DNA of 1,228 bases from Naegleria gruberi (lineage: Eukaryota). This document shows, piece by piece, positions 1 to 1,228 of the stretch. Position numbers and translations under genes: made by a program. The stretch is from NCBI GenBank assembly GCA_000004985.1, contig GG739492.1. One strand, given 5' to 3'. Below the pieces are notes generated by a model, which saw nothing but the letters and a program-made list of their open reading frames with translations, made no database searches and was not told where the DNA came from. Position 1 is the first letter of the stretch. Every line of letters begins with the position of its first letter.

Positions 1-181
1 CGGTTGTAATTGTTTAAAATTACACTAACACATAGTATCATCCTTAATGAACTTCAACTCCTAGTCGTCTCATCCCACCTGTTATCACACCTTAAACAAA
101 TGTTTAATTAAAAGAGCTCCATTTGGAAGAGTGGGATTTCGTTGGTTGAGGAATTTCGTTATGGCAGTTTTCCAGCCCCAG

Positions 182-343
182 AAAAAAAAAGAACATTTTT
201 CTCTCTAATAAAGAGATAGCAGTTACCATTTTTTCCCGCGTCGTAAAAATTACAAGTTCAAAAAAAAATTCATCAAGGCTTGTATATTGTTCGCTTCCTC
301 TAAGGAGAGATAACCACCCACCACCATCATTATTTATTTTTTT
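182..343 (+). promoter_or_regulatory. Putative yeast-type promoter region. It contains two poly(dA) tracts (182-190 and 260-268), TATA-like TATATT (283-288), a CA-rich block CACCCACCACCATCAT (314-330) and a T-tract (337-343).
   Basis: It lies upstream of ATG 381. Stops are dense in all frames of 1-150. Homopolymeric dA:dT tracts are classic nucleosome-excluding elements of yeast promoters. The TATA-like element sits ~95 nt upstream of the ATG. No transcription start data are available, so this is positional inference only. Confidence 0.3.
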
Positions 344-380
344 GGATGATTTTATTGTTCTTGTTGGGAATATTTAAAGA

Positions 381-873
381 ATGATGAATGATAATGCTCC
401 ATTTAAGATTCAGCCCATGCTGGATAAAGTAACAACACTCATCATGATGCAATCTATTTTAACGCCTTCAATATCAGACTTGGAAAGTGATCCCTATCTA
501 CGAAAAGCACTTGTTCAATTACCTCAAGACAAGTGGTCCTTATCTAAACAAGATATTAATACTAGTAAATTAGCCTTGGAAAGTGTTGGAATTGTAGATT
601 GTTTTGAGGGTGTTATAAGATATAACAAGATGAGTAATAATGTAGTAATATCTCCAAAGAAATTTATGGATATTTTGAAGGTTACTGGAGAAGCTCTTCC
701 TTATAAAGTGTTATTAATTGATAATGATGTTAATAACATTAAAAGTGCTAAGGAAGTTGGCATTTTAACTTGCCATGTTGTTCAAGGCTCTAGTGGAGTC
801 CCTATTCAGAACACGGTAGATTTTCAAATAGACACCATATATCATGTACAGACCGAGCTTAGAGATTTAAAGA
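381..873 (+). CDS. Exon 1 of a HAD-superfamily hydrolase-like protein (SDT1 / pyrimidine 5'-nucleotidase-like fold). Motif I (DxDxT) is not recognisable, so it may be a pseudo-enzyme. The unspliced ORF as given in the track runs 381..920.
   Basis: This is the only long ORF in six frames. ATG 381 is the first ATG after an in-frame TAA at 375-377. The C-terminal segment YKVLLIDNDVNNIKSAKEVGILTCHVV (nt ~705-785) matches the general HAD motif IV pattern: a hydrophobic strand, D-x-D, then N-I-x-x-A-x-x-x-G-h-x-T. ISPKK (651-662) is a plausible motif III lysine, and W-S-L-S (~531-545) a plausible motif II Ser/Thr. From memory, DCFEGVIRY...ISPKK...LLIDND...GILTCHVV resembles the yeast SDT1/PHM8 C-terminal half, though I cannot verify residue-level identity here. 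Codon usage is yeast-like (AGA for Arg, CCA for Pro, TTA/TTG for Leu). After 873 the reading frame gives KFLLFIIILTISFE*, which looks like AT-rich non-coding read-through. Confidence 0.6.
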
Positions 874-949
874 GTAAGTTTTTATTATTTATAATTATAT
901 TAACAATATCATTTGAATAACCATCAATCATTTAACCATCAATAATTAG
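874..949 (+). other. Probable spliceosomal intron, phase 1, 76 nt with the first in-phase acceptor. Alternative acceptors would give 874..964 or 874..970.
   Basis: GTAAGT at 874-879 is a perfect 5' splice-site consensus. TATTAAC at 898-904 is one mismatch from the yeast TACTAAC branch consensus, and a second TTAAC lies at 932-936. The first YAG downstream is TAG at 947-949. AG dinucleotides ending at 949, 964 (CAG) and 970 (TAG) all restore the phase into the long open frame downstream. AGs ending at 951 and 959 do not. The interval is very AT-rich and contains the in-frame TAA (918-920) that ends the unspliced ORF. Confidence 0.45.
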
Positions 950-1228
950 AGTATAAAAGACCAGGTGTAGTGGAAGAAGAAGTAGCATCACCACTTGCAG
1001 TTAAGAATGATATTGTTAACACAAAATCAAAGTTAGCACCCAATAGTACAAACTTGGATAAAAGACCAACTATTGCACCTTCTATACTTCAAGAACCTAA
1101 AAAACAAACCCTTAAACCATCTCCAATCAATAGCAGGGCATCTCCAAAACCTGATAATGATCAAAATATGCCAATATCCCCTCAACCAAAAAAACCAGTA
1201 GAAAATATCAAATTGAATTCTATTGATG
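950..1228 (+). CDS. Probable exon 2 of the same gene, 3'-partial. It encodes a Pro/Ser/Lys-rich low-complexity C-terminal region that continues past the window end.
   Basis: The frame with codon starts 946, 949, ... is open from 946 to 1228 (93 codons, no stop). It has no in-frame ATG until 1168-1170. In roughly one-third-GC DNA, a stop-free run this long is unlikely by chance (order 1e-3 or less). Joining 873|950 gives ...TELRDLK-K-YKRPGVVEEEVASPLAVKNDIVNTKSKLAPNSTNLDKRPTIAPSILQEPKKQTLKPSPINSRASPKPDNDQNMPISPQPKKPVENIKLNSID... Pro codons are overwhelmingly CCA/CCT, consistent with exon 1 usage. Confidence 0.4.

What the first reader, a model, noticed from the sequence alone, without database searches (positions are those of the whole stretch)
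874..970. Unannotated small intron with canonical GTAAGT donor and three in-phase AG acceptors; the ORF track truncates the gene
The six-frame ORF ends at 920, inside what looks like an intron. GTAAGT sits at 874-879, exactly where the HAD-domain homology is running out. TACTAAC-like TATTAAC (898-904) and TTTAACC (931-937) provide branch candidates. AGs ending at 949, 964 and 970 all place exon 1 (phase 1) in frame with a 93-codon stop-free frame that has no ATG of its own. AGs ending at 951 and 959 would hit stops immediately. The three usable acceptors are spaced 15 and 6 nt apart. Their use would add 0, 5 or 7 residues (K-YKRPG-VV... / S-VV... / M-EEE...), so alternative 3' splice-site use without frame disruption is conceivable.
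Basis: seen in the sequence. Interest (0 to 1): 0.55.

Follow-up and report, generated by a model that had tools for sequence, protein, structure and literature searches.

The report
Ordinary conserved intron in Naegleria gene
The stretch 874-949 is a normal 76-base spliceosomal intron in a Naegleria gruberi gene, found at the same codon in three related amoebae, so the 179-residue ORF is an artefact of reading through the intron; this is an annotation fix, not a new kind of biology.

Summary
The window is a whole 1228-bp Naegleria gruberi scaffold. The deposited protein, XP_002667996.1, is 152 aa, is marked 'partial', and ends at the last full codon before GTAAGT at 874.

On their own the motifs are chance-level. 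GTAAGT occurs once against 0.65 expected. Two or more extra in-phase AGs within 21 nt are expected 12-17% of the time.

Comparison with relatives is decisive:
- N. fowleri, N. lovaniensis and Willaertia magna have annotated phase-1 GT-AG introns (63, 45 and 38 nt) at the identical codon.
- A syntenic metagenome relative has no intron and reads straight through.
- Only acceptor 949 gives a gapless alignment (K-YKRPG against N-FKRQG; 15 residues to LAVKND in four sequences).
- Similarity to the orthologous loci stops at 866 and resumes at 949 in another frame.
- The intron holds the lowest G+C of the scaffold (17% against 33%).

Conclusion: exon 1 is 381-873, the intron is 874-949, and exon 2 runs from 950 off the scaffold end.

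Use of the acceptors at 964 or 970 has no support and could not be tested without RNA data. The HAD homology is real but weak (profile against PDB, E=8e-7), and catalytic motif I is missing. The intron is ordinary.

The parts
381..873 (+). Exon 1 (164 codons plus 1 base; phase 1 at its 3' end). The start codon is probably 381-383.
   Evidence: ORF. The N-terminus MMNDNAPFKIQPMLDK matches N. lovaniensis MMNDIGPVKVQPMLDK and N. fowleri MTDIGPVKVQPMLDK. tblastx similarity to four orthologous loci covers 381-866. The deposited protein XP_002667996.1 covers 417-872.
483..779 (+). Degenerate HAD-like region within exon 1 (the motif II-IV half; no motif I).
   Evidence: Orthologue profile against PDB: XMP phosphatase 7ef6 E=8.2e-7; yeast SSM1 (3onn, 3opx) and the putative nucleotide phosphatase 3nuq E about 8e-3. 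Pfam PF00702 matches weakly in 4 of 5 orthologues. No DxDx[TV] in any orthologue.
874..949 (+). Spliceosomal GT-AG intron, 76 nt, phase 1.
   Evidence: Same codon and phase as the annotated introns of N. fowleri (63 nt), N. lovaniensis (45 nt) and W. magna (38 nt). Absent from the syntenic contig L003. G+C is 17% against 33% in the flanks. Protein-level similarity is interrupted at 867-948, with a frame change.
874..879 (+). 5' splice site GTAAGT.
   Evidence: The orthologous donors are GTAAGT (N. lovaniensis, W. magna) and GTATGT (N. fowleri).
918..920 (+). In-frame TAA inside the intron. It ends the read-through ORF 381-920.
918..947 (+). Two tandem 15-nt copies (TAACCATCAATCATT / TAACCATCAATAATT) in the 3' part of the intron.
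   Evidence: (93% identity).
932..936 (+). Most likely branch site TTAAC (branch A at 935, 14 nt before the acceptor G). This is inferred.
   Evidence: yUnAy scan. Orthologous introns have yUnAy matches 16 nt (N. fowleri CTGAC), 14 nt (N. lovaniensis TTGAT) and 9 nt (W. magna TTAAT) from the 3' end. A second candidate, TTAAC at 900-904, lies 46 nt upstream.
947..949 (+). 3' splice site TAG. It is the first AG after the inferred branch site and the acceptor supported by the orthologues.
   Evidence: The alignment is gapless only with this acceptor. There are 15 residues between DLK/R and LAVKND in N. gruberi, N. fowleri, N. lovaniensis and P0002. The exon 2 start 'ag tat aaa aga cca ggt' matches 'at ttt aaa cga caa gga'.
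950..1228 (+). Exon 2, incomplete. The frame stays open to the scaffold end; the orthologues continue for about 145-195 more residues.
   Evidence: tblastx similarity resumes at 949-1050 in a different frame.
962..970 (+). There is no evidence that they are used.
   Evidence: Using them would delete the residues YKRPG(VV) that align with FKRQG in N. fowleri and N. lovaniensis.

Best explanation
Positions 874-949 are an ordinary U2-type (GT-AG) spliceosomal intron of 76 nt, in phase 1. It lies in a Naegleria gruberi gene for a heterolobosean-specific protein. That protein has a degenerate HAD-like N-terminal domain and a long, low-complexity, lysine-rich tail.

The proposed mechanism is as follows. 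U1 pairs with GTAAGT at 874. The branch adenosine is most likely A935, in TTTAAC. The first AG downstream (TAG, 947-949) is the acceptor. Splicing joins 873 to 950 and makes the codon A|AG (Lys). The reading frame then continues into exon 2, which runs off the end of this 1228-bp scaffold.

The 179-aa ORF 381-920 is exon 1 plus 15 codons of intron read-through to an in-frame TAA. The deposited model XP_002667996.1 stops at the exon 1 boundary and starts 12 codons too late.

Shown here: the organism, the intron position and phase conserved in three relatives, an intronless relative that reads through, the conserved exon 2, and the acceptor choice by homology. Inferred: the branch site and actual excision in RNA.
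For: The window is a 1228-bp N. gruberi contig. Its annotated protein is 152 aa, 'partial', and ends ...TELRDLK at nt 872.

Annotated orthologous introns sit at the same codon and phase. N. lovaniensis L001 3209-3253 is GTAAGT...AAG (45 nt). W. magna L002 3425-3462 is GTAAGT...TAG (38 nt). N. fowleri L004 2497-2559 is GTATGT...CAG (63 nt).

Metagenome contig L003 is syntenic: a Rad4/PUL-like gene lies upstream and a trypsin-like gene lies downstream on the opposite strand. Its ORF across the junction is uninterrupted.

The spliced product aligns without gaps across the junction and over all of exon 2, with 59-71% identity to four orthologues.

Similarity to the orthologous loci ends at 866 and resumes at 949 in another frame. 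Intron G+C is 17% against 33%, the minimum for the scaffold. The exon 2 frame is open for 93 codons, P about 1e-3.

N. gruberi genes average 1.7 exons, and the genome is 33% G+C, which matches the window (PMC8296547).

ORF callers produce the same read-through artefact in N. fowleri (P0008...LKELKSMSLNLCLLVLLTIF*).
Against: I could obtain no transcript evidence for N. gruberi itself. No spliced protein or cDNA-derived sequence is in the protein collection. No spliced junction was found in metagenome contigs.

Taken alone, the donor hexamer and the AGs are no more than chance gives.

The orthologous introns are gene-model annotations, and I could not check their RNA support. The N. lovaniensis intron is a multiple of 3 with no in-frame stop, so there an ORF argument alone would not prove it.
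Confidence: 0.93

Rival explanations
1. The intron is real, but the 3' splice site is used alternatively. Acceptors at 964 and/or 970 (or 976-985) would be used at appreciable levels alongside 949, giving in-frame isoforms that lack 5, 7 or more residues.
For: CAG (962-964) and TAG (968-970) have good acceptor context and keep the frame. They lie 29 and 35 nt from the inferred branch A, which is within reach. An in-phase AG at +15 is also present in N. fowleri and N. lovaniensis (caa|gga).
Against: In-phase AGs are expected at this density: 0.109 per codon, P(two or more in 21 nt) = 0.12-0.17. Four more follow, at 976-985, simply because of a Glu run. The conserved +15 AG follows from the conserved [P/Q]-Gly codons. 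Only acceptor 949 reproduces the orthologue spacing and the K/N-[YF]KR-x-G residues. By established knowledge of U2-type splicing, the first AG downstream of the branch site is normally chosen. There are no isoform data.
Confidence: 0.1
2. There is no splicing. The 179-aa ORF 381-920 is the true product, and the open frame after 946 is a separate gene or an accident.
For: The ORF has a start and a stop. The Pfam and structure searches gave nothing that requires the extension.
Against: Four orthologues continue through the junction into sequence homologous to 950-1228. One of them has no intron at all. The 15 read-through residues SKFLLFIIILTISFE have no counterpart in the orthologous proteins. 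The deposited model itself stops at the donor. The downstream frame has no start codon until 1168.
Confidence: 0.02
3. Intron retention is a regulated second output. The unspliced mRNA would yield a 179-aa HAD-like protein with a short hydrophobic C-terminal tail.
For: Retention gives a hydrophobic tail followed by a stop in N. gruberi (SKFLLFIIILTISFE*), N. fowleri (SMSLNLCLLVLLTIF*) and W. magna (SKYLLFVYA*). Intron retention was detected in the N. gruberi transcriptome and exceeded exon skipping in all but one species surveyed (PMC6142364).
Against: Hydrophobic read-through is what T-rich intron sequence gives in such a frame. The LTI(S)F resemblance sits on the TTAAC branch-like motif. The N. 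lovaniensis intron has no stop, so the outcome is not conserved. A premature stop would more likely mark the transcript for nonsense-mediated decay (inference).
Confidence: 0.05

Closest known systems
Annotated orthologous introns: N. fowleri FDP41_004171 (XP_044561589.1), N. lovaniensis C9374_000524, Willaertia magna ABK040_015490
   Same: Same gene, same codon (after ...DLK/R), same phase 1, and GTAAGT or GTATGT donors with AG acceptors. All are short and AT-rich, with a yUnAy motif 9-16 nt before the acceptor.
   Different: The N. gruberi intron is the longest (76 nt against 63, 45 and 38) because of a 15-nt tandem duplication at 918-947. Apart from the splice signals and the ACCATCA stretch near the 3' end, the intron sequences are not alignable. 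In N. gruberi the intron and exon 2 are missing from the deposited protein.
Tandem or alternative 3' splice sites (NAGNAG-type and nearby in-frame acceptors) of animals and plants
   Same: Several in-frame AGs lie shortly after the acceptor.
   Different: The spacing is 15 and 21 nt, not 3. The density is no higher than the coding sequence gives by chance. There is no transcript evidence, and the orthologues fit only the proximal site.
SDT1/SSM1-type HAD nucleotidases and Arabidopsis XMP phosphatase (PDB 3onn, 3opx, 3nuq, 7ef6)
   Same: There is profile-level similarity over about 100 residues. It covers motif II (Ser), the region of motif III, and motif IV (hhhDnD..N).
   Different: There is no motif I nucleophile (DxDx[T/V]) and no cap region. 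Motif IV is D-N-D rather than D-D. No orthologue is listed with a Pfam domain, and the Pfam matches found here are weak. A roughly 240-residue low-complexity tail is attached.

Membership tests
U2-type GT-AG spliceosomal intron | The host is a eukaryote with spliceosomal introns. | tested here: met
   The window is a Naegleria gruberi scaffold. N. gruberi has 1.7 exons per gene and a mean intron length of 203 bp (PMC8296547).
U2-type GT-AG spliceosomal intron | A 5' GT within a GTRAGT-like donor, and a 3' AG. | tested here: met
   GTAAGT at 874-879 and TAG at 947-949.
U2-type GT-AG spliceosomal intron | A branch-site motif (yUnAy) a short distance upstream of the acceptor. | tested here: met
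   TTAAC at 932-936, 14 nt from the acceptor. Comparable motifs lie 9-16 nt upstream in the three orthologous introns. This is sequence-level evidence only; the branch point was not mapped.
U2-type GT-AG spliceosomal intron | Removal restores one reading frame that encodes a conserved protein. | tested here: met
   The spliced product aligns without gaps across the junction with four orthologues. The frame changes between the similarity blocks 381-866 and 949-1050.
U2-type GT-AG spliceosomal intron | The position is shared with orthologous genes, and an intron-less homologue reads through. | tested here: met
   Same codon and phase in N. fowleri, N. lovaniensis and W. magna. The syntenic contig L003 has no intron.
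U2-type GT-AG spliceosomal intron | Excision is observed in RNA (junction reads or cDNA). | not testable with these tools
   There is no read-mapping tool. The protein collection holds no spliced N. gruberi product, and metagenome contigs hold no spliced junction.
Alternative in-frame 3' splice sites | Two or more acceptors used in vivo, giving in-frame isoforms. | not testable with these tools
   This needs RNA-seq junction counts.
Alternative in-frame 3' splice sites | In-frame AGs enriched beyond the coding background, or isoform lengths supported by orthologues. | tested here: not met
   P = 0.12-0.17 for two or more in-phase AGs in 21 nt. The orthologues support only acceptor 949.
HAD (haloacid dehalogenase-like) phosphatase superfamily | Significant sequence similarity to HAD members. 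| tested here: met
   Profile against PDB: 7ef6 E=8.2e-7; 3onn, 3opx and 3nuq about 8e-3. The Pfam evidence is weak: PF00702 best E=0.012 in 4 of 5 orthologues, and no hit for the window protein.
HAD (haloacid dehalogenase-like) phosphatase superfamily | Motif I, DxDx[T/V], with the nucleophilic Asp. | tested here: not met
   No orthologue has DxDx[TV] in the domain. The PDB alignment begins at chain residue 91. The intergenic spacers of 130-230 nt leave no room for an upstream exon.
HAD (haloacid dehalogenase-like) phosphatase superfamily | Motif II (S/T), motif III (K) and motif IV (DD or DxxxD). | tested here: inconclusive
   In the alignment, Ser aligns with the motif II Thr. In motif IV the first Asp is kept and the second is Asn (IDNDxNN). 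The motif III Lys is displaced (TPKK against KPS).
HAD (haloacid dehalogenase-like) phosphatase superfamily | A Rossmannoid HAD fold. | tested here: inconclusive
   The AlphaFold2 model built from a 5-sequence alignment has mean pLDDT 32, so it is unusable. No fold search was run.

The most novel reading that the evidence does not exclude
The 3' end of the intron may be used flexibly. The 15-nt tandem duplication supplies two branch-like sites, and in-frame acceptors lie at 949, 964 and 970. N. gruberi could therefore make several in-frame isoforms, or a retained-intron 179-aa form with a hydrophobic tail, of a catalytically dead HAD-like protein. That would be regulated alternative splicing in a heterolobosean. 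My evidence does not exclude this, and it does not favour it either.
Probability: 0.07. Interest if true: 0.3.

Novelty: new member of a known kind. Interest (0 to 1): 0.1.

Why it matters
The practical value is annotation. The N. gruberi entry XP_002667996.1 should start at nt 381, carry an intron at 874-949, and continue into exon 2, with the rest of the gene lying off this small scaffold. The case also shows that six-frame ORF tracks mislead on eukaryotic sequence: the same read-through ORF appears in N. fowleri assemblies. The intron has a small use as a marker, since it is conserved from Willaertia to Naegleria but lost in one uncultured relative. No open question is affected.

Tried and rejected
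- Pfam on the 179-aa ORF gave no hit up to E=1. HAD similarity appeared only with an orthologue profile and weakly in the orthologues.
- AlphaFold2 on exon 1 with the 5-sequence alignment gave pLDDT 32, which is unusable, so I ran no fold search.
- The look-up of encoding contigs found nothing on record for P0001 (the window's own protein) or P0003. I reached the N. fowleri locus through cluster member P0006 instead.
- A metagenome scan for more relatives found none confirmed.
- A metagenome scan for the spliced junctions 873|950, 873|965 and 873|971, using one gapped pattern, gave 0 hits. This is an uninformative negative.
- Rfam on the window returned only chance-level matches.
- MAFFT alignment of the four introns was not meaningful outside the exon flanks.
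- The Cell 2010 N. gruberi genome paper is not held, and I found no paper giving Naegleria splice-site consensus.
- I considered a ciliate-type genetic code (TAA/TAG read as Gln) and dropped it once the organism was identified and the orthologues showed an intron.
- I considered an upstream exon carrying HAD motif I and rejected it. The start MMND/MTD is conserved, and the intergenic spacers in the relatives are only 130-230 nt.

Full report
**What is in the sequence.** The window is 1228 nt with 32.7% G+C. Every coordinate in the finding is right.
- GTAAGT is at 874-879, TATTAAC at 898-904 and TTTAACC at 931-937.
- AG dinucleotides end at 949, 951, 959, 964 and 970.
- The ORF 381-920 ends at a TAA at 918-920.
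- Exon 1 (381-873) is 493 nt, so the intron is phase 1.
- Acceptors 949, 964 and 970 keep the frame open to the end of the window, with junctions K-YKRPG-VV, S-VV and M-EEE. Acceptors 951 and 959 run into stops.

There are two small corrections. In-phase AGs also end at 976, 979, 982 and 985. The downstream frame does contain an ATG, at 1168-1170.

**Is it more than chance?** The motifs alone are not.
- GTAAGT occurs once on both strands against 0.65 expected, and 95 of 200 shuffles have at least one.
- An in-phase AG for a phase-1 intron is a codon junction NNA|GNN. This occurs at 0.109 per codon in this gene. Two or more extra in-phase AGs within 21 nt are therefore expected in 12-17% of places.

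Two other features are not random.
- The frame after 949 is open for 93 codons. The analytic P is 7e-4, and 27 of 20000 shuffles reach it.
- Positions 874-949 have 17% G+C against 33-34% on either side. The lowest-G+C 76-nt windows of the whole scaffold fall on this stretch.

**Where it comes from.** I searched with the spliced product. It found a 100% match to a 152-aa 'predicted protein, partial [Naegleria gruberi]' on a contig of exactly 1228 bp. The accessions are XP_002667996.1 and EFC35252.1. That protein runs from MLDKV (nt 417) to ...TELRDLK (nt 872). It therefore stops at the last complete codon before GTAAGT.

The source is a eukaryote with spliceosomal introns. N. gruberi has 1.7 exons per gene, a mean intron length of 203 bp and 33% G+C (PMC8296547).

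**Comparative evidence.** Four relatives continue past ...DLK into sequence homologous to 950-1228: N. fowleri, N. lovaniensis, Willaertia magna and a protein from a JGI metagenome. I fetched their genomic loci and located each intron by requiring that its removal reproduces the deposited protein.

| Species | Locus and coordinates | Length | Ends |
|---|---|---|---|
| N. gruberi (window) | 874-949 | 76 nt | GTAAGT...TAG |
| N. fowleri | L004 2497-2559 | 63 nt | GTATGT...CAG |
| N. lovaniensis | L001 3209-3253 | 45 nt | GTAAGT...AAG |
| W. magna | L002 3425-3462 | 38 nt | GTAAGT...TAG |

The three orthologous introns are all in phase 1 and all sit after the same K/R codon.

The metagenome contig L003 has the same gene order as N. 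lovaniensis. A Rad4/PUL-like gene lies upstream and a trypsin-like gene lies downstream on the opposite strand. It is therefore genomic DNA, not cDNA. There the gene is one uninterrupted ORF that reads ...MKDLRGHKKTSS... across the junction. This serves as a natural spliced reference.

Similarity of the window to all four loci (tblastx) covers 381-866 in one frame. It resumes at 949 or shortly after in a different frame, and nothing matches in between.

**Which acceptor.** With acceptor 949 the junction reads DLK-K-YKRPGVVEEEVASP-LAVKND. N. fowleri reads ELK-N-FKRQGESDEERGSP-LAVRND. N. lovaniensis and P0002 have the same 15-residue spacing, and the alignment has no gap there.

At the nucleotide level, exon 2 starts 'ag tat aaa aga cca ggt'. 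N. fowleri has 'at ttt aaa cga caa gga'.

Acceptors 964 and 970 would delete 5 or 7 of these aligned residues. TAG at 947-949 is also the first AG after the best-placed branch-like motif, TTAAC at 932-936, 14 nt upstream. The three orthologous introns have yUnAy motifs 9-16 nt from their acceptors. First-AG choice downstream of the branch is established knowledge for U2-type introns.

I therefore place the intron at 874-949. Alternative use of 964 or 970 remains possible but has no positive support. It could not be tested, because there is no read-mapping tool. The protein collection holds no N. gruberi spliced product. A gapped pattern covering all three spliced junctions found nothing in metagenome contigs.

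**What the ORF track shows.** The 179-aa ORF is exon 1 plus 15 codons of intron (SKFLLFIIILTISFE) up to an in-frame TAA. ORF callers produce the same artefact on N. fowleri assemblies. P0008 ends ...LKELKSMSLNLCLLVLLTIF*, and P0007 is the exon 2 piece. The hydrophobic tails are what T-rich intron sequence translates to.

**The gene.** The conserved N-terminus is MMNDNAPFKIQPMLDK, matching MMNDIGPVKVQPMLDK in N. lovaniensis and MTDIGPVKVQPMLDK in N. fowleri. This puts the start at 381, not at 417 as deposited.

- Pfam finds nothing in the window protein.
- Pfam gives only sub-threshold PF00702 matches in four of five orthologues.
- A profile of the orthologues hits Arabidopsis XMP phosphatase (7ef6, E=8.2e-7). 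It also hits yeast SSM1 (3onn, 3opx) and the putative nucleotide phosphatase 3nuq (E about 8e-3). The match covers window residues about 35-133 (nt 483-779), which is the motif II-IV half of the fold.
- No orthologue has the DxDx[T/V] nucleophile motif. The short intergenic spacers in the relatives leave no room for an upstream exon.

The domain is therefore probably non-catalytic. This is an inference. The AlphaFold model was unusable at pLDDT 32.

Exon 2 encodes a low-complexity tail. In the relatives this tail continues for about 145-195 more residues and includes a KKKKKRKKK run. In N. gruberi that part lies beyond the scaffold end.

**Verdict.** This is an ordinary, evolutionarily conserved GT-AG intron, and the six-frame ORF truncates the gene. 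It is a new instance only in the sense that the deposited N. gruberi model lacks the intron and exon 2. The orthologous introns are already annotated in three species. The three alternative acceptors are a chance-level feature with no support. Interest is low.

Noticed in passing
window 381-419: The conserved start is ATG 381 (MMNDNAPFKIQPMLDK), matching N. lovaniensis and N. fowleri. The deposited N. gruberi protein starts 12 codons later, at 417. The N. lovaniensis model C9374_000524 starts about 97 codons too late; its in-frame MMND is at L001 2710.
   Followed up: yes
window 483-779 (exon 1): The N-terminal domain is a degenerate half of a HAD phosphatase fold. It is similar to SDT1/SSM1-type nucleotidases and XMP phosphatase, but no orthologue has the motif I nucleophile, and there is no room for an upstream exon. 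It is probably a pseudo-enzyme fused to a long Lys-rich, low-complexity tail. It was found only in Naegleria, Willaertia and one metagenome relative.
   Followed up: partly
window 918-947: A 15-nt tandem duplication (TAACCATCAATCATT / TAACCATCAATAATT, 14 of 15 identical) lies in the 3' part of the intron. It duplicates a branch-like TAAC motif and partly accounts for the N. gruberi intron being longer (76 nt) than its orthologues (63, 45, 38 nt). The distal copy resembles the N. fowleri intron end (GACCATCATATTATGCAG).
   Followed up: partly
L003 1748-2974 (JGI metagenome 3300002220 contig): An uncultured relative (41% G+C, 61% protein identity) keeps the three-gene synteny but lacks the intron entirely. 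Willaertia has the intron, so this is most simply an intron loss.
   Followed up: partly
L001 3209-3253 (N. lovaniensis): The orthologous intron is 45 nt, a multiple of 3, with no in-frame stop. Retention there would insert 15 residues in frame rather than truncate. The N. fowleri intron (63 nt) is also a multiple of 3 but contains a stop.
   Followed up: partly
window 962-964; L004 and L001 at +15 from their acceptors: An in-phase AG 15 nt into exon 2 is present in all three Naegleria species (cca|ggt or caa|gga). It coincides with the conserved [P/Q]-Gly codons, so it is most simply explained by coding constraint.
   Followed up: partly
window 1-380: The upstream region has A runs (181-189, 262-269), a T run (334-341) and a CCACCCACCACCA stretch (314-326). 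It shows no similarity to the orthologous loci and no RNA family match. It is presumably promoter and 5' UTR. The Rad4/PUL-like neighbour seen in the relatives is not on this scaffold.
   Followed up: no
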